The translations under genes were made by a program, and so were the position numbers. A stretch of DNA of 64,000 bases, taken from contig CALXMS010000002.1 in NCBI GenBank assembly GCA_944389535.1, positions 129,041 through 193,040 of the forward strand, given 5' to 3'. The DNA comes from an uncultured Alphaproteobacteria bacterium. Its GTDB lineage: Bacteria; Pseudomonadota; Alphaproteobacteria; Rs-D84. Position 1 is the stretch's first letter; each line of letters starts with the position of its first letter. The notes under the pieces were generated by a model, which saw nothing but the letters and a program-made list of their open reading frames with translations, was not told the origin of the DNA and did no database searches. Below, piece after piece: positions 118 through 17,246 of this stretch.

Positions 118-720
118 ATGACAAAGAATGAACTGTTTTTAGAATTGGCTAAACCGAACGCACAAGGCGTTAGTCGTTGGGTACGTGTTACAGAATTTGT
201 GGGGAAATATGCTGATCTGGCTTTTGGAAACGGTGCATCTTGGGCTAGAAAAGAATCGTCCTTGGCAAAAAAATATATTGTAGAATTTGATAAAACTATA
301 ACCAGCGGAAATGGAATTGATGCCATCAGACTAAATGGTTTGAATAACGGGGATTTTTCGCAACACATAAGTCCAGAAATAAAAAAGGTTATAAAAGCCC
401 AAAGGTGTGTTGTCTTAGGAACCTCTAATCCAGAAGTGGATCATAAAAATGGTATGAAAAATGAAGCTAGAGTCATGAGAAATGAAGAACAGCGTTTGTC
501 GGATTTTCAACCGTTAAGTAAAGCCGCCAATGATGCAAAACGACAATTTTGCAAGGAATGTATGAGAACTCGTACAAGATATGATGCAAAAAAGTTGGGG
601 TACCCAATGTCATACTATAAAGGTGGTGCACACCACAATTTTGAAGAAGACGCTTGTGTTGGGTGTTATTGGTATGATCCCAAAGAATTTAAAAAACATT
701 TAAAGAAAAAAGAAGACTAA
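118..720 (+). CDS. Hypothetical protein, candidate HNH/beta-beta-alpha-Me-type (Zn-ribbon) endonuclease. Probable restriction subunit of the adjacent R-M-like cassette.
   Basis: 200-aa ORF with a strong RBS. Contains D108-H109-x-N-G followed by Asn residues and two CxxC pairs (C145/C148, C180/C183), reminiscent of Zn-containing HNH nucleases. Lies 15 bp upstream of the next ORF and faces two DNA MTases. Confidence 0.4.
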   Translation: MTKNELFLELAKPNAQGVSRWVRVTEFVGKYADLAFGNGASWARKESSLAKKYIVEFDKTITSGNGIDAIRLNGLNNGDFSQHISPEIKKVIKAQRCVVLGTSNPEVDHKNGMKNEARVMRNEEQRLSDFQPLSKAANDAKRQFCKECMRTRTRYDAKKLGYPMSYYKGGAHHNFEEDACVGCYWYDPKEFKKHLKKKED

Positions 721-734
721 AACAGGGGGGGCGC

Positions 735-1895
735 ATGTATCACGTGTTTGTAGTTAACGATGTTACGTTCAAATATCACTTGGAATATTTGTTTGCAGGT
801 ACTTGCGCACTTCAAAATCCAGATTTTTTAGAAGATAGTGAGTATCGCAATCCTTCAAATAAAAATGATGGTGTAACACCAAAGCAAGAGTTATCAATCT
901 GTGGAATGATAGCAGATGTTTCAAGAATAAGACCTGGCGATAAAGTTATATTTTATCTTACACAAACAACAGAACATGAGGGTATGTTTTTTGGAATATT
1001 TGTTGTAAAAGGACTAGCGTTTTTTGATTCAAATGATGGTAATTATTTGTCGCCTCAGCTCGGAGTAAATCTGAATTTTAGGGTTATATTGTCACCAGAT
1101 AAAGTTTATGCACGAGGAGTTAGTGAGAGAGAAGCGTTAGATAGTTTACGTGGAATTACACACCCAAGTCAAATGTGTTGGAGTATGATATATAGAAAAT
1201 TAAAAGGTAAACGTGGTTGTACAATGATCACAGATTATGAAGCCTATAGATTAGTCAATCTAATCAAAAAAGCTAATAATGGTAGGGAATTAAAATCAAA
1301 ATGTTTTACGTATGACAATGAGTTAAATCAAATTACAAGCAATGAACAACGTAATCCTTACAGGGGCACAAAGTGTGATCTTGATGTTAAAGATAGAATG
1401 TTGGTAAAAGCAGAACGTCAAAATAAATATGAAGCACATTTACAGGCATATGTTTTGCAACACATAGATAAAAAGCCATTAAAAGATCTATTAAATATAG
1501 ACACAAATGTACCAGTGTGGATTGGAAATGAAGTATCTTGTGGTGTAGGAATGCAGAGCATAGATATAATGACTCAGCAATGTGGAAAAAAAGATATTTA
1601 CATAAACGTTATAGAATTAAAATGCGTGGAACCTTATGATGATATTCTAGATAAACAATTGCCGAAATATGAGAATTGGATTTTGGATTATATTTCTCCA
1701 TTATATCAAGAAAAACATGTCCATATTCGTCCAATAATAATCGCCAAGTTATTTGGCCTGAAAGAGCAGACAGGGTGTTTTGTTCAAAAATGTCAAAAGA
1801 TAAAAAGTTACACAACGGGCAACACAACCGTTGAACCGGTTTGTTATATTGGATATACTATTGATGAAGATATAAAATTTACCAAGTTGGTTTAA
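735..1895 (+). CDS. Hypothetical two-domain protein: N-terminal PUA-like (EVE/ASCH-like) domain plus C-terminal PD-(D/E)XK-like nuclease motif. Candidate (modification-sensing?) restriction endonuclease.
   Basis: 386-aa ORF with an AGGGGGGG RBS. The N-terminus carries a 'GDKVIFY...GMFFGIFVVKG' pattern typical of PUA-like/EVE beta-barrels. The C-terminus carries 'KDIYINVIELK' (D-x6-E-x-K), a PD-(D/E)XK-like motif. Its stop codon is 1 nt from the stop of the convergent MTase. Confidence 0.4.
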   Translation: MYHVFVVNDVTFKYHLEYLFAGTCALQNPDFLEDSEYRNPSNKNDGVTPKQELSICGMIADVSRIRPGDKVIFYLTQTTEHEGMFFGIFVVKGLAFFDSNDGNYLSPQLGVNLNFRVILSPDKVYARGVSEREALDSLRGITHPSQMCWSMIYRKLKGKRGCTMITDYEAYRLVNLIKKANNGRELKSKCFTYDNELNQITSNEQRNPYRGTKCDLDVKDRMLVKAERQNKYEAHLQAYVLQHIDKKPLKDLLNIDTNVPVWIGNEVSCGVGMQSIDIMTQQCGKKDIYINVIELKCVEPYDDILDKQLPKYENWILDYISPLYQEKHVHIRPIIIAKLFGLKEQTGCFVQKCQKIKSYTTGNTTVEPVCYIGYTIDEDIKFTKLV

Positions 1896-1896
1896 T

Positions 1897-2682
1897 TTAT
1901 TGTTTCTTGAACACAATAATATATTCGTGTTTGAAGACATAAAAGTCACTATTTAATGCTCTGTAACGCCAAATTGCGTGCTTATTGGATTTGCCCTTTG
2001 TTTCTTCAAAATTTTTTATCAAAATAGCTTTAAGTATGAAATTTTTACGCATAAATAAATTCATACAATAAAAGCCAAGGGGGGTAATCTGACTGTTGGA
2101 ATATTTATCGCCGATAACGACAGCGCAATATCTTCCTTTCTCCAAATGCTTTGTTGTATTATCGATAATTGCGCTAAAAGAATCCAAGAAATCATTCAAG
2201 TTTTTTGAATTAGATAAATCGTTCGCATCTTCAGAAAACTTCACAATATCCCAATAGGGGGGATGCAAAATTACAAACTGAACTTTTTTTATACCTAAAC
2301 CTTGTAGTTCTTTTTCTAAGTCAACAGAACGACTATCTCCCACAATAATTTTACTGGTAATATTTTCTTTCTTTTCCGTGATTATTCTGCGATATGCCTC
2401 GACTGCAACATCACGCTGCAACTCTATGCCAATCGAATTGCGGTTCATCCTTTGAGCTTCGATCAATGTTGTGCCGCTGCCCATAAAGGGGTCTAATACC
2501 CAATCGCCAGATTTGGTGTACCTTGTTAATAATTGATGCGGAATTTGTGGAATAAAATTTCCATGGTAATGTCCACTATGCGCACCAGAGTTGTCGCGTT
2601 TTTCTATAATCCATAGTGAATCTGTATATATATCCCCGTATTCTCTCCATCGTTGTATATCAATATCGTTGTAGCGAGACAT
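1897..2682 (-). CDS. SAM-dependent DNA amino-methyltransferase (N6-adenine or N4-cytosine; PF01555-like, motif I DPFMGSGTT, motif IV variant HPPY)
   Basis: 261 aa. 'DPFMGSGTT' at roughly aa 65 and 'VQFVILHPPYWD' at roughly aa 150. The ATG is 1 nt after the stop of the upstream Dam-like MTase. Confidence 0.75.
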   Translation of the reverse strand: MSRYNDIDIQRWREYGDIYTDSLWIIEKRDNSGAHSGHYHGNFIPQIPHQLLTRYTKSGDWVLDPFMGSGTTLIEAQRMNRNSIGIELQRDVAVEAYRRIITEKKENITSKIIVGDSRSVDLEKELQGLGIKKVQFVILHPPYWDIVKFSEDANDLSNSKNLNDFLDSFSAIIDNTTKHLEKGRYCAVVIGDKYSNSQITPLGFYCMNLFMRKNFILKAILIKNFEETKGKSNKHAIWRYRALNSDFYVFKHEYIIVFKKQ

Positions 2683-2683
2683 T

Positions 2684-3691
2684 TTAACTGTCCTTTTTTA
2701 CAAGGCAATGTAGATATTCAATGGTTTCGTTAGCGGATATATTGCGGTTTTCATCTTTGTCAGCCTTGAACCTGCGATACGTTTTTGTATAAAAAGAATA
2801 TTCGCCATACTTTGACATTATATCTTTGATTTGGTCAAGGGACATAAGCCCCTCGTTATTATAGCTCAAGAAGATGTATTTAAACTTTGCTTTCTTAATC
2901 AAATCTTCAAAAACGTCGCATACGGTTTTTGCAGAACAAAATGCGCTTTTTTGATCGGAATAATTTCTAAGACCCGTGACCCCCTTAACGGTTGGGTTAT
3001 CATATTTTGCGATAGTTTCAAGCACATGATAATTTGCACAGTACTGGCGTTCATTATATGGTGGGTCCAGGTATAATACATCGCCCTCGATCTCATTTAC
3101 CAGTTCGTTAATATCTTTGTTATAAGCTTTGCCTTTTGGACCGTTTACAATCGGCAATGGTTCCAATATAAAATCCTTTGCTGCGGACTTTTTGATGTTT
3201 TTCAGAAAAGCACCGTACACAGAAGCTGTATTTGCATATTTATCAATAGAATTTATAAGAGAAGCTAAATAATAGAAATAAGTGTCTTTATCAATTTCAT
3301 TTGCTTTAAGCAATTTTTCTAGCTCTGTTCGTATGGCATCGCATTTTCTGCCATTGGAATCTGTAAAATAATTCCTGCCGGAACCAGATCCAGCACAATA
3401 ATTATTATAAATAAAGCCGTCAATTCCTGGTAATGAATTTAGATGATCCAACAAGTCTGTTCGTACGGAATCAGTGTTTTCTATCAGGTGTTTATTTACA
3501 ACAAAACTGTAATATTGCAGGTCATTTGATAGAACTTTGCAGCCAAGGCCTCTGTAATATGCCCCAACAACACCTGTACCGGCAAATAAGTCTGCAAAGG
3601 AATAAGGGGTGCCATCTTCGTAATTAGTAACTTTCTTGACGGTTTCGTGTAAAAAATCTAATAAAGAGTACTTCGACCCTATGTAATTCAT
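2684..3691 (-). CDS. Dam-like N6-adenine DNA methyltransferase (MethyltransfD12 class)
   Basis: 335 aa. N-terminal 'MNYIGSKYSLLDFL...FADLFAGTGVVG' and 'LYLDPPYN' motifs are characteristic of the Dam/DpnM/T4 Dam family. Confidence 0.85.
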   Translation of the reverse strand: MNYIGSKYSLLDFLHETVKKVTNYEDGTPYSFADLFAGTGVVGAYYRGLGCKVLSNDLQYYSFVVNKHLIENTDSVRTDLLDHLNSLPGIDGFIYNNYCAGSGSGRNYFTDSNGRKCDAIRTELEKLLKANEIDKDTYFYYLASLINSIDKYANTASVYGAFLKNIKKSAAKDFILEPLPIVNGPKGKAYNKDINELVNEIEGDVLYLDPPYNERQYCANYHVLETIAKYDNPTVKGVTGLRNYSDQKSAFCSAKTVCDVFEDLIKKAKFKYIFLSYNNEGLMSLDQIKDIMSKYGEYSFYTKTYRRFKADKDENRNISANETIEYLHCLVKKDS

Positions 3692-3937
3692 CCGCGTTTC
3701 CTTAAATGTTTCTCAACAATCCTTAATACAGTTAAATATCGTTGTTGAATGATAAGCATTTTTTGTGCAAAAAAGCAAATGGTTTTTAAGCTTGTTTAGA
3801 AAAACTTATGAAAAAACAATTTGTTGAATAAAATAATTTTTATGTTTCTATGTTTTTTTCACATCGCTGACATTTGAAATAATTTGCGCTGGATCCGGCT
3901 GAGTAACCAGGCTTGTTGGCAAAAATATAAAAATAAT

Positions 3938-3970
3938 AAAAACACCGCCTTTTGTGGCGGTGCTTTTTTC
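3938..3970. terminator. Bidirectional rho-independent terminator hairpin (CACCGCC-TTTTGT-GGCGGTG) flanked by A and T runs
   Basis: Perfect 7-bp GC-rich stem followed by a T-run on the + strand and preceded by an A-run; terminates the minus-strand TA operon. Confidence 0.6.
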
Positions 3971-3981
3971 AAACATATTGC

Positions 3982-4317
3982 TTACATAGCTGTTGCTATG
4001 TTCGCTTTTTTATTGTCGTTAGATGCTTTTGGAGTAAAACTGACTTTTAAACCTAATGCATCTATTGTTTTAAATACTGTTTCTACATTAGGACGACGTG
4101 CCCCAGAGAAACTTTTATATAAAGATTCGCGACCTACACCTATCTCTTTTGATATTTTATTTATGCTACGTGCTTTGGCAACATCACCAAGAGCTATTAA
4201 GAAAAATTCAATATCATTTTCTTCCCACGCAGCTTCAAGATAGTTAGCGATATCTTCTTCTGTTTTAAGATGATCAAGAATGTTCCATTCTGTCACCTTG
4301 TTACGCTCCTTTTTCAT
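3982..4317 (-). CDS. Addiction-module antidote protein (HigA-like, HI1420/TIGR02684-type antitoxin)
   Basis: 111 aa. AAGGAG RBS 6-7 nt upstream. Lies immediately downstream of the toxin gene in the toxin-first (HigBA-like) order. The sequence resembles the HI1420 antidote family. Confidence 0.75.
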   Translation of the reverse strand: MKKERNKVTEWNILDHLKTEEDIANYLEAAWEENDIEFFLIALGDVAKARSINKISKEIGVGRESLYKSFSGARRPNVETVFKTIDALGLKVSFTPKASNDNKKANIATAM

Positions 4318-4348
4318 TTTTTACTCCTTTGAGTAAAGTAGTTTCATA

Positions 4349-4639
4349 CTACTGGTTTGCCAAAATTTTCTTGGCTTTTTCTATATCTGACTGTTGGGTT
4401 GATTTATCGCCGCCAATCAGTAACAAGATTATTTCCTCGCCTCGTTGGGTGTAATAAACCCTATAGCCTGGACCATAATCTATGCGCAACTCGAAGATGC
4501 TATCCCCCACAGATTTGCAATCGCCAAAATGTTCTTGGGTAGCAATTCGTCTGAGCCGGACGTCTATCCTTGCCTTCGCTTTACTATCTTTTAATTTGTT
4601 ATACCACCTTAAATACTCGTTTGTTTCTACTATTACCAT
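4349..4639 (-). CDS. Addiction-module killer protein (RelE/HigB superfamily, HI1419/TIGR02683-type toxin)
   Basis: Contains 'FGDCKSVGDSIFELRIDYGPGYRVYY...LLIGGDKSTQQSDIEKAK', the hallmark of the HI1419 killer family. The ATG at 4639 has a GGAGC RBS. The six-frame track begins 2 codons earlier at a TTG. Confidence 0.8.
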   Translation of the reverse strand: MVIVETNEYLRWYNKLKDSKAKARIDVRLRRIATQEHFGDCKSVGDSIFELRIDYGPGYRVYYTQRGEEIILLLIGGDKSTQQSDIEKAKKILANQ

Positions 4640-4717
4640 TTTCAAAGCTCCATAACTGATTTCGTCCAGTCCCTACGTCCTTCATATACTCTCCCTTGTT
4701 GTTTTTGTTCGTTATTA

Positions 4718-4737
4718 TTGTATCCAAATGGATACAA
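4718..4737. promoter_or_regulatory. Perfect palindrome TTGTATCCA-AA-TGGATACAA upstream of the toxin-antitoxin operon; probable autoregulatory operator
   Basis: 9-bp perfect inverted repeat with a 2-bp spacer, about 80 bp upstream of the toxin start codon. Confidence 0.45.
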
Positions 4738-4765
4738 AAAGTCAAGAATTTTTTTATAAAAATTT

Positions 4766-5074
4766 TCACTGTGCTAAAACAGTCTTTTTCCACGATGCAG
4801 CCATTTGGGATAATTTGCGCTGGAGGCAGCGCAGTAGCCAAGCCTGGCGAAAGGTAAGTTTGCCGCCATTTGTTCTGCGTATTGCCGCTTCTAGTTTGCA
4901 TAACGAACGACAGGCGGCAAAGTAGAGCATAGTAAAATTTGTATTATGGTTAGGTTGTATCTCGTCAAAGTGCTTATACTTCATGTGCGTCCCCTTAAAA
5001 AAGTTGTCGTATTTGTGCTTATCTTTCCAAGATTGTCCAGTCATTTGTTCATAATGACAAAAATAAAAATACAC
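4766..5074 (-). CDS. Hypothetical ORF, possibly a gene remnant. The region has overlapping ORFs on both strands and no recognisable domain.
   Basis: 102-aa open frame; no RBS or domain recognised. Confidence 0.2.
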   Translation of the reverse strand: MYFYFCHYEQMTGQSWKDKHKYDNFFKGTHMKYKHFDEIQPNHNTNFTMLYFAACRSLCKLEAAIRRTNGGKLTFRQAWLLRCLQRKLSQMAASWKKTVLAQ

Positions 5075-5194
5075 AGATGTACACCAGATGTGTGATTTTT
5101 TGCAGAAAAAGGTTGGTATGCTGCGGTTTTTACTTTTGTGACAGACGGACTAGCGTTCCATAGTTCGCAGGCAAAAAAGGGCTCTTTTCAGGTA

Positions 5195-5307
5195 TGAAAT
5201 CAATACTGAAATCAGACCTGAAATCATACTGAAATCAGGTATGATTTCATCACGGTTTCATCTATGATTTCAAGTATGAAATCTGTGTGATTTCAGAGAT
5301 GATTTCA
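5195..5307. repeat. Phased array of ten 8-bp motifs: TGAAATCA x4 direct, then mostly the inverted form TGATTTCA, spaced 11-12 bp
   Basis: Motif starts at 5195, 5207, 5219, 5230, 5242, 5253 (degenerate), 5265, 5277, 5288 and 5300. Mean period is about 11.7 bp. Located between the TA/remnant region and the 3' end of tRNA-Asn. Confidence 0.8.
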
Positions 5308-5450
5308 GCAGTAATGGTATATATTACTGTGTGTCAAATATATGTTTTTGTTTTATAACTAGGGCAATTTAGAGCCATTTTATCCAATTTTGCATAAAAA
5401 CGGGGTAGAAAACAGACAATAAAAAATCCGCAGAAATCTGCGGAAATCTG

Positions 5451-5526
5451 TGGCTCGGGCAACTGGACTCGAACCAGTGACATACGGATTAACAGTCCGT
5501 TGTTCTACCGACTGAACTATGCCCGA
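5451..5526 (-). tRNA. tRNA-Asn (anticodon GTT)
   Basis: 76-nt cloverleaf on the minus strand. 7-bp acceptor stem TCGGGCA/TGCCCGA, anticodon loop CTGTTAA, T-loop GGTTCGAGTCC, encoded CCA. A hairpin at 5421-5446 follows the 3' end. Confidence 0.9.
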
Positions 5527-5650: not shown

Positions 5651-6466
5651 ATGCTACTGAAAGGAAAAAAAATTCTAATTACAGGCGTTGCTAACGACTG
5701 GTCTATGGCTTGGGCTATCGCTAAACGGGCTCATGAGGAAGGTGCGGAAATCGCAATGCCATACGCTATGCCTAACCTGGAAAAGCGCGTGCGCCCGCTG
5801 GCAGAATCCATCGGCGCTAAATTCGTCCAGGAATGTAACGTGCAAAACGATGAACAGATGGATTCTTTGTTTGATAATATCGAAAAAGAATGGGGAAAAT
5901 TAGACGGTATGTTACACGCCATCGCTTTCTCTGATAAAAATGAATTGACAGGGCGCTATGCAGATACAACGCGCGCAAACTTTAAGAATACAATGGACGT
6001 TTCCGTATATTCTTTGGTGGATTTAACCAGACGTGCTTCTAAACTTATGACAGATGGCGGAAGTATCGTAACGCTGACTTATTATGGCGGCGAAAAGTCC
6101 GTGCCAAATTACAACGTTATGGGTGTCGCAAAATCTGCTCTGGATAGCAGCGTTCGTTATCTGGCTTCTGATTTGGGACGCGATAAAATTCGTATTAACG
6201 CAATTAGCGCAGGACCTATCATGACATTAGCGTCTTCTGGCGTTGGAGGAATGAAGTCTATGTTGCGTTTGAACGCAGAACAAACACCATTGCGCCGCAA
6301 CATGACGCTGGATGACGTTTCTGGTGCCGCAGTTTACTTGTTAAGTGATTTGTCTAGCGCCGTTACGGGCGAAGTTCATCATGTTGACTGTGGATATTCA
6401 ACAACTGGTATGATACCAAACGAATTGAAAGAGGTTCTATTAAAAGGCTTAGATGAGCAGAACTAA
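5651..6466 (+). CDS. fabI: Enoyl-[acyl-carrier-protein] reductase (NADH) FabI
   Basis: 271 aa. The N-terminal Rossmann motif 'ILITGVAN' and overall similarity to the FabI SDR family, plus a conserved Tyr/Lys catalytic region. Confidence 0.9.
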   Translation: MLLKGKKILITGVANDWSMAWAIAKRAHEEGAEIAMPYAMPNLEKRVRPLAESIGAKFVQECNVQNDEQMDSLFDNIEKEWGKLDGMLHAIAFSDKNELTGRYADTTRANFKNTMDVSVYSLVDLTRRASKLMTDGGSIVTLTYYGGEKSVPNYNVMGVAKSALDSSVRYLASDLGRDKIRINAISAGPIMTLASSGVGGMKSMLRLNAEQTPLRRNMTLDDVSGAAVYLLSDLSSAVTGEVHHVDCGYSTTGMIPNELKEVLLKGLDEQN

Positions 6467-6480
6467 AATTTCACAGCGTT

Positions 6481-6510
6481 AAAAAAACCGCCTTTTGTGG
6501 CGGTTTTTTA
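6481..6510. terminator. Rho-independent terminator (ACCGCC-TTTTGT-GGCGGT plus T-run)
   Basis: Hairpin and T-run directly after the fabI stop. Confidence 0.65.
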
Positions 6511-6611
6511 TTACGAATATTTTCTTATAAAAAATAATTGATTTTTAATAAGAATACAATCATAATTAGAATATAATCTTATTAAATAGAGGAGATTAAA
6601 GGGAGGACACT

Positions 6612-8917
<2,306 letters not shown>

Positions 8918-17167: not shown

Positions 17168-17210
17168 ATGCTCACCTTTTTTATGTTTATACTTATTATG
17201 TCCCAAAAAA

Positions 17211-17246
17211 ATATTTTGTCAAATATTTTGTCAATTTTTTTGTCAA
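17211..17246. repeat. Three tandem direct repeats of (A)TATTTTGTCAA, period 12 bp, in a divergent promoter region
   Basis: TTTTGTCAA at 17214-17222, 17226-17234 and 17238-17246. Confidence 0.7.

What the first reader, a model, noticed from the sequence alone, without database searches (positions are those of the whole stretch)
5195..5307. Helically phased array of ten TGAAATCA/TGATTTCA octamers (period about 11.7 bp) next to tRNA-Asn
Ten copies of an 8-bp motif occur with a strict 11-12 bp spacing. Four are in direct orientation, followed by copies of the reverse-complement orientation. The region is non-coding and lies between a degraded ORF region and the tRNA-Asn 3' end. This regular phasing is characteristic of cooperative protein-binding arrays such as iterons of a replicon, recombinase arm-type sites, partition-site centromeres, or a nucleoid-protein nucleation site. 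No annotated feature explains it.
Basis: seen in the sequence. Interest (0 to 1): 0.65.

Follow-up and report, generated by a model that had tools for sequence, protein, structure and literature searches.

The report
Phage origin-type repeat array beside tRNA-Asn
The ten phased 8-bp repeats are real and conserved; they mark the tRNA-proximal end of a prophage-derived defence island in a gut alphaproteobacterium and match the repeat array that related phages carry inside a putative replication-organizer gene, so they are most likely a second phage origin or initiator-binding site, not a plasmid or partition site.

Summary
Window 5195-5307 holds 8 exact TGAAATCA/TGATTTCA copies (9 in the whole 64 kb) plus two degenerate ones, spaced 11-12 bp. 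The motif is a quasi-palindrome, TGA-WW-TCA, so "orientation" is only AA versus TT in the centre.

The array is not a local oddity. The same block (array, AT-rich stretch, tRNA terminator, 46-nt tRNA-Asn 3' half) recurs in five other loci of Ca. Enterousia-like gut Alphaproteobacteria. One is the tRNA-proximal end of a 57-kb IMG/VR prophage contig.

That contig, and about 100 related protein clusters, carry the same 12-bp-phased motif inside a DUF6291 gene. There it encodes a disordered linker and is followed by 60 bp of 15-22% GC. Remote DUF6291 proteins nearly all have a short-period repeat at that position. A few end in the SPP1 G38P C-terminal domain or in DnaD/DnaB-type domains.

This matches phage SPP1, where oriL lies inside the organizer gene and a second intergenic oriR lies beside morons. 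Best reading (about 0.5): an oriR-like organizer-binding iteron array, orphaned here in an island with no organizer gene in the window. The main rival is an excisionase or integrase accessory site. Binding and replication are untested.

The parts
5195..5307 (.). Array of ten TGA-WW-TCA octamers (8 exact, 1 with one mismatch, 1 with two), period 11-12 bp. Putative organizer-binding iterons.
   Evidence: Conserved in L016, L019, L071, L082 and L141. Octamers vary less than spacers.
5308..5365 (.). Nearly invariant AT-rich stretch directly right of the array. It contains the palindrome CAGTAAT-N7-ATTACTG (5309-5329) and a TATGTTTTTGTTTTA motif (5341-5355) that also occurs at element left ends. 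Candidate unwinding element and/or integrase arm-type site.
   Evidence: Only one variable column within 5308-5355 among the five loci. GC falls to 20% at 5320-5359, against 39% for the window. A similar TGTGTTTTTGTT motif is seen in the left ends of L093 and L082.
5137..5194 (.). Conserved left flank of the array (GTGACAGACGGACTAGCGTTCC...GGCTCTTTTCAGGTA). It is shared by five loci but not by the prophage end in L141.
   Evidence: The motif GACA[GC]ACGGACTA recurs near homologues of the small ORF in L157, which has no array.
5427..5444 (-). Intrinsic terminator of tRNA-Asn. It is carried together with the array block at element ends.
   Evidence: Duplicated with the tRNA half in L019 and L082.
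5451..5496 (-). The 46-nt 3' half of tRNA-Asn (up to the anticodon loop). This is the att identity segment that is duplicated at every element junction.
   Evidence: Partial copies in L019 (from 3010), L082 (two copies), L093, L055 and L157. There is only one copy in the window.
5451..5526 (-). tRNA-Asn (GTT), the integration target.
4769..5002 (-). Conserved 78-aa cargo ORF, transcribed away from the array. It is a neighbour, not an obligatory partner.
   Evidence: Found without an array in L157-159, L166 and L167. The array occurs without it in L141.
118..4645 (.). Cargo of the island: an ICEA/NlaIII-type endonuclease, an unknown ORF, two DNA methyltransferases, and a HigA-like antitoxin with a Gp49/HigB-like toxin.
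   Evidence: The same gene set, continuing into further defence-type genes, is seen in L166.

Best explanation
The array is a set of iterons for the origin-binding 'replisome organizer' of a family of temperate phages. These phages integrate into tRNA-Asn of Ca. Enterousia-like gut Alphaproteobacteria.

In these phages a first array of the same 8-bp motif, at 12-bp spacing, lies inside the organizer gene (DUF6291 family). It occupies the stretch that encodes a disordered linker and is followed by a very AT-rich segment, like oriL of SPP1, the origin in lambda gene O, or the origin in Tuc2009 rep. A second, non-coding array lies at the tRNA-proximal (attR, P-arm) end of the prophage next to accessory cargo genes (morons), like SPP1 oriR. 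The window holds this second kind of array.

Inferred mechanism. Organizer molecules bind the quasi-palindromic TGA-WW-TCA units side by side, one per roughly 11.7 bp, and form a nucleoprotein filament or wrap. This either opens the adjacent AT-rich DNA for helicase loading or acts as a tight replication-fork barrier, as proposed for G38P on oriR.

In this window no organizer gene is present within 64 kb, and the 5 kb next to the array are restriction-modification and toxin-antitoxin cargo. The array would therefore act only in trans, when a cognate phage is resident or infecting.

Shown: the array, its conservation, its position at element and prophage ends, and its identity with the gene-internal arrays. 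Inferred: who binds it, and that it acts in replication.
For: 1. The array is real and far beyond chance.

2. The genome-wide pattern scan found 107 loci, 21 of them from Enterousia-like MAGs. L016, L019, L071 and L082 carry the same block next to tRNA-Asn.

3. IMG/VR contig IMGVR_UViG_3300000304_000212 (57,236 bp) has a full tRNA-Asn, the terminator, the same conserved block and a 5-copy array at one end (L141). At the other end it has an integrase, a DUF6291 gene with a 6-copy internal array, and terminase genes (L124/L145). The 31-nt tRNA-half probe found no other copy in that contig.

4. All 104 DUF6291 clusters of this phage group show an xKSx/xISx 4-aa repeat at the same place. At DNA level the motif is TGAAATCA, TTAAATCA, TGATATCA/TGAATTCA or CGAAATCG, depending on the phage.

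5. The constraint is on DNA. Serine after K or I in the repeats is TCA in 34 of 40 cases, against 14 of 79 elsewhere in the same genes. Lysine is AAA in 30 of 30, against 123 of 169. The K/I alternation is simply AA versus TT.

6. AlphaFold2 puts the array in a disordered linker (residues 76-124, pLDDT below 50) between two folded domains.

7. The 60 bp after each gene-internal array are 15-22% GC, against 38-44% for the loci.

8. Most of the 144 more distant DUF6291 representatives inspected show a short-period repeat or low-complexity run directly after the N-domain. Of the 144 scanned against Pfam, 120 match DUF6291. The only replication-related partners are Phg_2220_C (2 members), DnaB_2 (2) and the DnaB N-domain (1). 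Phg_2220_C is also the C-domain of SPP1 G38P.

9. SPP1 precedent. oriL lies within gene 38 and oriR is intergenic beside morons. Both are direct repeats plus an AT-rich region, and both are bound by G38P (PMC6316719, PMC3485210). The Tuc2009 rep gene is annotated 'contains origin of replication' and holds CAACCA repeats at 11-bp spacing. A small HTH_17/excisionase-like gene precedes the organizer both in SPP1 and here.

10. Octamers are more conserved than spacers in the non-coding arrays.
Against: No binding or replication data exist.

The C-domain of this DUF6291 subfamily matches no known organizer. hhalign against SPP1 G38P and Tuc2009 Rep gave nothing. Sequence and fold searches against PDB and BFVD gave nothing.

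No helicase or loader gene was seen next to the organizer gene. Its neighbours are an HTH_17 protein, a Zn-ribbon protein and a DUF6362 protein.

The window's array sits in an att arm, where excisionase and integrase sites are expected.

The AT-rich stretch beside the window's array is weaker (28% GC over 60 bp, 20% in the best 40 bp) than beside the gene-internal arrays.

Some elements using the same att site have no array (L082 MetK element, L157-159).

The five homologous blocks are 90-96% identical, so the selection signal rests on few substitutions (p = 0.024).

The internal and terminal arrays could be paired within one phage only once.
Confidence: 0.5

Rival explanations
1. The array is a set of recombination-directionality (excisionase, Cox/Apl-type) or integrase accessory sites in the P arm of attP/attR. 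An HTH_17 Xis-like protein would polymerise on the phased repeats and bend the arm for excision. The copy inside the organizer gene would be a second, regulatory target.
For: The array lies 144-256 bp from the tRNA 3' end, in the arm that is distal to int in the prophage. HTH_17 (excisionase-family) genes lie directly upstream of int and two genes upstream of the organizer gene. From my own knowledge, lambda Xis and P2 Cox/186 Apl bind head-to-tail repeats about one helical turn apart, and Apl and Cox act both at attP and at a promoter.
Against: Copy number and orientation are very plastic for an intasome component. Counts are 0, 5, 9, 10 and about 12, with a 31-bp internal inversion. Elements with the same 46-nt core lack the array. 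The repeat after the N-domain is a property of DUF6291 genes in general, including distant ones with other motifs. This ties it to that gene rather than to att sites. Other motifs (TGTGTTTTTGTT, GTATATAT[AT]AC) occur in both arms and are better arm-site candidates.
Confidence: 0.2
2. The array is a functionless relic: a fragment of the repeat-bearing linker of an organizer gene, left at the island end by recombination among tandem prophages and kept only because it is young.
For: The junction 'TGATTTCAg[gc]agtaat' is shared by the gene-internal arrays and the window block. The 12 int-Fic loci (L055 and others) hold an obviously truncated gene fragment with 3-4 octamers. The blocks are only 4-10% diverged. 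No organizer gene lies in the window.
Against: Octamers vary less than spacers. The 11-12-bp phase is kept although the reading frame is lost. With ten copies this array is longer than all but a few of the gene-internal arrays seen (only P0096 is comparable). A diverged second array (L019, from 5353) still keeps about 12 phased GAAATCA units. The block is retained at the end of an apparently intact 57-kb prophage.
Confidence: 0.15
3. The array is an operator or promoter array for the divergent small ORF (4769-5002), or a silencing or nucleation site for a host nucleoid protein.
For: The array lies about 190 bp upstream of the small ORF in five loci. Weak sigma-70-like matches fall inside the array.
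Against: The small ORF occurs without the array in L157-159, L166 and L167, and the array occurs without the ORF in L141. The octamer is not enriched elsewhere in the 64-kb window, which argues against a general host-factor site.
Confidence: 0.07
4. The array is a ParR-type partition centromere, or the iterons of an integrated plasmid.
For: Ten repeats of about 11 bp resemble parC of plasmid R1 (my own knowledge).
Against: No parM/parR, parA/parB or rep gene lies nearby. There is no similarity to any PLSDB plasmid. The elements integrate site-specifically and are linked to a tailed phage.
Confidence: 0.03

Closest known systems
Bacillus phage SPP1: oriL (inside gene 38) and oriR (intergenic, beside morons), both bound by replisome organizer G38P
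   Same: There are two separated repeat clusters of one motif. One lies inside the putative organizer's own gene, the other is non-coding and sits beside accessory cargo genes (morons). An AT-rich stretch adjoins the repeats. A small excisionase-like HTH gene lies upstream of the organizer. Some DUF6291 proteins carry the G38P C-domain, Phg_2220_C.
   Different: The N-domain here is DUF6291, and this subfamily's C-domain is unassigned. No sequence similarity to G38P was detectable. The phage is temperate, and the second array lies in the att arm next to a tRNA. The repeats are 8-bp quasi-palindromes at 11-12 bp. Nothing has been tested experimentally.
Lactococcal phage Tuc2009 rep2009 (origin inside the rep gene) and the 'Per' phage-encoded resistance effect of cloned phage origins
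   Same: Short repeats with about 11-bp phase lie in the middle of a replisome-organizer gene (CAACCA every 11 bp). Extra origin copies in trans are reported to interfere with the phage (PMC6356513). This is the model for the decoy reading.
   Different: Per is a copy-number effect of cloned fragments, not a natural chromosomal island feature. There is no detectable homology.
Phage lambda O protein and the lambda origin (iterons inside gene O)
   Same: The origin is embedded in the initiator gene, between the DNA-binding and C-terminal parts, with an AT-rich region beside it (my own knowledge).
   Different: Lambda has four 19-bp inverted-repeat iterons and no second array. No homology was tested, because no sequence was at hand.
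P2 Cox / 186 Apl / lambda Xis binding-site arrays in attP
   Same: Phased short repeats in the att arm distal to int. A small HTH protein could act both at att and at a second site (my own knowledge).
   Different: Those arrays have 2-7 copies with fixed architecture. Here there are 0 to about 12 copies, and the repeat is tied to DUF6291 genes in general.
parC centromere of plasmid R1 (ten 11-bp ParR sites)
   Same: The number and spacing of the repeats (my own knowledge).
   Different: No par genes are present. The context is a phage or island, not a plasmid.

Membership tests
Phage origin iterons bound by a replisome organizer (SPP1 oriL/oriR, Tuc2009 rep-ori, lambda O-ori type) | Cluster of short repeats at regular spacing | tested here: met
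   Ten octamers at 11-12 bp, Poisson p about 3e-22.
Phage origin iterons bound by a replisome organizer (SPP1 oriL/oriR, Tuc2009 rep-ori, lambda O-ori type) | The same repeats lie inside the organizer gene of the cognate phage, after its N-terminal domain | tested here: met
   Met in related phages (L036, L093, L124/L145, L136, L144 and 104 protein clusters). No such gene is present in the window itself.
Phage origin iterons bound by a replisome organizer (SPP1 oriL/oriR, Tuc2009 rep-ori, lambda O-ori type) | A second, non-coding repeat cluster elsewhere in the same phage genome | tested here: met
   One 57-kb IMG/VR contig holds both arrays (L141 and L145). This is the only pairing available.
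Phage origin iterons bound by a replisome organizer (SPP1 oriL/oriR, Tuc2009 rep-ori, lambda O-ori type) | AT-rich unwinding region adjoining the repeats | tested here: inconclusive
   Clear for the gene-internal arrays (15-22% GC over 60 bp). Weaker for the window (28% over 60 bp, 20% at 5320-5359).
Phage origin iterons bound by a replisome organizer (SPP1 oriL/oriR, Tuc2009 rep-ori, lambda O-ori type) | The protein is homologous to known organizers or initiators | tested here: inconclusive
   The DUF6291 N-domain is fused to Phg_2220_C (the G38P C-domain), DnaB_2 or the DnaB N-domain in 5 of 144 representatives. This subfamily shows no similarity to G38P, Tuc2009 Rep, PDB or BFVD entries.
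Phage origin iterons bound by a replisome organizer (SPP1 oriL/oriR, Tuc2009 rep-ori, lambda O-ori type) | Specific binding by the organizer, and origin or fork-barrier activity | not testable with these tools
   Needs EMSA or footprinting, replication assays, or read-depth data.
attP arm accessory sites (integrase arm-type or Xis/Cox/Apl sites) | Lies in an att arm within a few hundred bp of the crossover | tested here: met
   The array is 144-256 bp from the tRNA 3' end. The crossover is in the anticodon loop, 46 nt further in.
attP arm accessory sites (integrase arm-type or Xis/Cox/Apl sites) | Present with fixed number and spacing in elements that use the same att site | tested here: not met
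   Counts are 0 (L082 MetK element, L157-159), 5 (L141), 9 (L071), 10 and about 12 (L019 array 2). An internal segment is inverted in L141.
attP arm accessory sites (integrase arm-type or Xis/Cox/Apl sites) | Bound by Int or the RDF | not testable with these tools
   Candidate HTH_17 genes exist. No binding data are available.
Type II partition centromere (R1 parC / ParR) | Adjacent parR-parM (or other par) operon whose promoter the array overlaps | tested here: not met
   The neighbours are a small unknown ORF, HigBA-like genes, restriction-modification genes and a tRNA. There are no ParM, ParA or ParB hits.
Plasmid iteron replicon (RepA type) | Adjacent rep gene, iterons of about 17-22 bp, plasmid relatives | tested here: not met
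   No rep gene. The units are 8 bp at 11.7 bp. No match in PLSDB.

The most novel reading that the evidence does not exclude
The integrase-less defence islands at tRNA-Asn keep the phage's att arms and its organizer-binding array so that they can exploit or sabotage the phage in trans. Examples are the window's island and the 4.8-kb L082 element, which has a phage-type left end and an array-bearing right end.

When a cognate phage is induced or infects, its organizer would either fire the island's array as an origin or be titrated by it. Firing would amplify the restriction-modification and toxin-antitoxin cargo and possibly mobilise it, in the manner of a minimal satellite. Titration would make the array a natural chromosomal version of the 'Per' origin-decoy defence.
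Probability: 0.15. Interest if true: 0.75.

Novelty: new member of a known kind. Interest (0 to 1): 0.45.

Why it matters
The result gives a testable function to an uncharacterised Pfam family. DUF6291 would be the origin-binding N-domain of phage replisome organizers whose genes contain the origin. It also identifies the origin motif of an uncultured phage group that infects abundant but uncultured gut Alphaproteobacteria.

It shows that tRNA-Asn in this clade is a tandem-integration hot spot, where prophages and small defence islands share att arms and an initiator-binding array.

If the islands respond to the phage's initiator, that would be a simple new route to phage-triggered amplification or decoy defence. 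If they do not, the array is an ordinary phage origin relic.

Tried and rejected
- Plasmid and cultured-phage DNA similarity for 4650-5450: no match. tblastn of the organizer against 50,697 phage records: no match.
- Rfam: only the tRNA, plus chance microRNA hits on the palindromic array.
- Small ORF as the array's binding protein: rejected, because each occurs without the other. It has no Pfam or NCBIfam hit.
- hhalign against SPP1 G38P and Tuc2009 Rep: no similarity.
- JGI metagenome scans: the first pattern found nothing. The second returned only the already known phage plus chance hits.
- Seeing what lies left of window position 1: three window proteins and the small ORF are not on record. 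By analogy with L166, the island continues as defence-type genes.
- Co-variation of internal and terminal motifs across phages: not possible. Only one contig holds both arrays, and the tRNA-half scan of viral contigs gave no further terminal arrays.
- Host-factor consensus sites (IHF, CtrA, DnaA box, parS, GANTC): compared by eye from memory. None fits.

Full report
**Observation.** The array exists as described. TGAAATCA or its complement occurs nine times in the 64-kb window, and eight of those lie in 5195-5307. Reading the sequence gives ten units starting at 5195, 5207, 5219, 5230, 5242, 5254, 5265, 5277, 5288 and 5300. The mean spacing is 11.67 bp. Unit 6 (CGGTTTCA) and unit 8 (TGAAATCT) are degenerate. 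With 4.43 octamers expected per 64 kb, eight in 113 bp has a Poisson probability near 3e-22. One-mismatch variants are not enriched elsewhere.

Two refinements matter. First, the two "orientations" differ only in the central dinucleotide (TGA-AA-TCA versus TGA-TT-TCA), and relatives also use TGATATCA and TGAATTCA. The unit is therefore a quasi-palindrome. Second, the sequence to the left is not a degraded ORF but a conserved 78-aa gene.

**Local context.** tRNA-Asn(GTT) is at 5451-5526 on the minus strand. Its terminator is at 5427-5444, and fabI and ligA follow to the right. To the left lie the small ORF, a Gp49/HigB-like toxin with a HigA-like antitoxin, two DNA methyltransferases, an unknown ORF and an ICEA/NlaIII-type endonuclease. 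A metagenome contig with an identical FabI (L002) has entirely different DNA directly beyond the tRNA 3' end. The array is therefore part of a strain-variable insertion.

**Relatives.** A scan of 185,579 species genomes for three octamers at 11-12-bp spacing gave 107 loci. Twenty-one come from gut Alphaproteobacteria MAGs (Ca. Enterousia, BRZ and RGIG bins). They fall into three contexts.

- Context A: L016, L019, L071 and L082 carry the same roughly 315-bp block as the window. It comprises the array, an AT-rich stretch with an invariant palindrome, the tRNA terminator and the tRNA 3' end, at 90-96% identity. Within the arrays, 2 of 80 octamer columns vary against 5 of 34 spacer columns (p = 0.024).
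- Context B: twelve loci have 3-4 octamers beside a Fic gene and a tyrosine integrase. They are followed by a short, frame-broken fragment of a phage gene.
- Context C: L036, L042 and L093 have 4-5 octamers inside an intact 189-202-aa ORF of a tailed temperate phage.

**The tRNA-Asn hot spot.** L019 has a full tRNA-Asn preceded by a diverged array of about 12 copies. Next come a MetK-like gene, a small serine recombinase, and then a 46-nt copy of the tRNA 3' half with terminator and the standard array. L082 has two such halves that delimit a 4.8-kb element without any recombinase gene. That element holds restriction-modification genes, a DUF262-like gene, the small ORF and the array. Its left end is the same roughly 170 bp that form the left end of the L093 prophage. 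L157 shows a defence island, a tRNA half, and then a prophage. Elements therefore pile up in tandem, each bringing a replacement 3' half of the tRNA. The array belongs to the tRNA-proximal arm of some of them.

**Link to a phage.** A 27-nt probe from the invariant stretch right of the array hit one viral contig, IMGVR_UViG_3300000304_000212 (57,236 bp). Its first 500 bp hold a full tRNA-Asn, the terminator, the conserved block and a 5-copy array. Part of that array is the exact reverse complement of window 5265-5295. T5orf172 and SNF2/PLD-type cargo follow, and there is no small ORF. The other end of the same contig holds the integrase, early genes, the 206-aa ORF with a 6-copy internal array, a ParB-methyltransferase and terminase genes. 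No second tRNA half was found in that contig. The window's block is thus the attR-side end of this phage family or of islands derived from it.

**The gene that contains the array.** The ORF belongs to Pfam DUF6291. All 104 clusters of this phage group show an xKSx/xISx four-residue repeat at the same position. At DNA level the unit is TGAAATCA, TTAAATCA, TGATATCA/TGAATTCA or CGAAATCG in different phages, always at 12-bp spacing. The constraint acts on DNA. The serine after K or I is TCA in 34 of 40 cases, against 14 of 79 elsewhere in these genes, and the lysine is always AAA. The chemically odd K/I alternation is just AA versus TT. AlphaFold2 places the repeat in a disordered linker (residues 76-124) between two confident domains. 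The 60 bp after each internal array are 15-22% GC, against 38-44% for the loci.

An exhaustive profile search found 161 representatives. Among the 144 more distant ones inspected, most carry a short-period repeat or low-complexity run immediately after the N-domain. Periods of 2, 4 and 7 residues are seen, such as DNDNDN, TDSDTDSY and ISNDIPS. Of the 144 scanned against Pfam, 120 match DUF6291. The only replication-related partner domains are Phg_2220_C (2 members), DnaB_2 (2) and the DnaB N-domain (1). P0284 is DUF6291, then repeats, then Phg_2220_C, and its N-domain aligns with this group at 91% probability. Phg_2220_C is the C-terminal domain of SPP1 G38P.

[quoted passage not shown] It also binds a second origin, oriR, about 12-13 kb away in a segment with morons. 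Both have an AT-rich unwinding region, and G38P bound to oriR is proposed to stall forks and trigger the theta-to-sigma switch (PMC6316719, PMC3485210). The Tuc2009 rep gene is annotated as containing the origin and has CAACCA units at 11-bp spacing in its middle. A small excisionase-like HTH gene precedes the organizer both in SPP1 and here. The anatomy found here is the same: an internal array plus AT-rich DNA in a disordered-linker-coding segment, and a second non-coding array beside accessory cargo genes. However, this subfamily shows no direct sequence or fold similarity to G38P, Tuc2009 Rep, PDB or BFVD entries.

**Most likely mechanism (confidence about 0.5).** The window's array is an oriR-like cluster of binding sites for the phage's DUF6291 organizer. 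Side-by-side binding to quasi-palindromic units every 11.7 bp would build a filament or wrap. That structure would either melt the adjacent AT-rich stretch (GC 20% at 5320-5359) or form a fork barrier. The window has no organizer gene. The neighbouring 5 kb, and probably more than 15 kb by analogy with L166, are defence-type cargo. Here the array can therefore act only in trans. What is shown is the array, its conservation, its place at element ends and its identity with the gene-internal arrays. The identity of the binder and the role in replication are inferences.

**Rivals.**

- Excisionase or integrase accessory sites (0.2). The array is in the right arm, and HTH_17 genes are present. However, copy number runs from 0 to about 12, orientation is plastic, elements with the same core lack it, and the repeat is a general property of DUF6291 genes.
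- A functionless relic of an organizer-gene linker (0.15). This is supported by the shared junction 'TCAg[gc]agtaat' and by the truncated copies of context B. It is opposed by octamer-biased conservation, a retained phase without a reading frame, and retention at the end of an apparently intact prophage.
- An operator of the small ORF or a host nucleoid site (0.07). The ORF and the array occur independently.
- A partition centromere or plasmid iterons (0.03). There are no par or rep genes and no plasmid relatives.

**Novelty and verdict.** The kind is known: phage origin iterons, with one copy in the initiator gene and a second copy elsewhere. The member is new. It comes from an uncultured phage group of gut Alphaproteobacteria, a DUF family with no assigned function, and a second array located in the att arm and retained in integrase-less defence islands. 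The most novel reading not excluded is that such islands use the array to be amplified by the phage's initiator, or to titrate it (probability about 0.15). Interest is moderate, at 0.45.

Noticed in passing
window 5451-5496; L019 3010-3055 and 5643-5718; L082 346-391 and 5212-5257; L093 about 6598-6643; L157 about 8400: tRNA-Asn is a tandem-integration hot spot. Successive elements are separated by a 46-nt copy of the tRNA 3' half, with the crossover in the anticodon loop. Each element brings its own replacement half and often the terminator.
   Followed up: partly
L093 6613-7956 (minus strand); L002 2-340: A large serine recombinase gene (447 aa) runs into the tRNA-Asn 3' end, so its last codons and stop lie inside the tRNA half. 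This is a different element type that uses the same tRNA.
   Followed up: no
L082 5211 down to 392 (minus orientation): A 4.8-kb element is bounded by two tRNA halves. It has a phage-type left end, restriction-modification genes, a DUF262-like gene, the small ORF and the array, but no recombinase gene. It may be a non-autonomous, phage-dependent island.
   Followed up: partly
L019 3056-5642: A 2.6-kb element consists only of a small serine recombinase, a MetK-like SAM synthetase and an array of about 12 copies, all in one orientation. The homologous MetK element in L082 (5258-5660) has no array.
   Followed up: partly
window 4769-5002 (minus strand); L157 10001-10207; L166 10001-10195; L167 10001-10273: A conserved unannotated small ORF (64-100 aa, 58 clusters) recurs in defence islands next to restriction-modification, Mrr, reverse transcriptase, Abi_alpha, DUF3800 and HigBA genes. 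A GACA[GC]ACGGACTA motif lies upstream of it (window 5146-5158, twice in L157).
   Followed up: partly
window 5309-5329 and 5341-5355; L093 about 6440-6520 (minus orientation): There is an invariant palindrome, CAGTAAT-N7-ATTACTG. TGTGTTTTTGTT and GTATATAT[AT]AC motifs occur in both element arms. These are candidate integrase arm-type or host-factor sites.
   Followed up: no
window 5265-5295 versus L141 about 380-410: A 31-bp internal segment of the array (three units) is exactly inverted between the window and the prophage end. The left flank of the array also differs between loci, so the array is a mosaic junction.
   Followed up: partly
P0163-P0306 (DUF6291 representatives): Across the family, a short-period amino-acid repeat or low-complexity run commonly follows the DUF6291 domain (periods of 2, 4 and 7 residues). 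A few members end in Phg_2220_C, DnaB_2 or DnaB N-domains. This suggests that DUF6291 marks replisome organizers with gene-internal origins.
   Followed up: partly
L055 3520-6250 and 11 similar loci: A nearly identical integrase plus Fic module with a truncated organizer-gene fragment is shared by about a dozen Enterousia species representatives. This implies recent horizontal spread.
   Followed up: no
window 17209-17246: A 12-nt tandem repeat, AAATATTTTGTC, with 3.2 copies and 92% matches. It is unrelated to the octamer.
   Followed up: no
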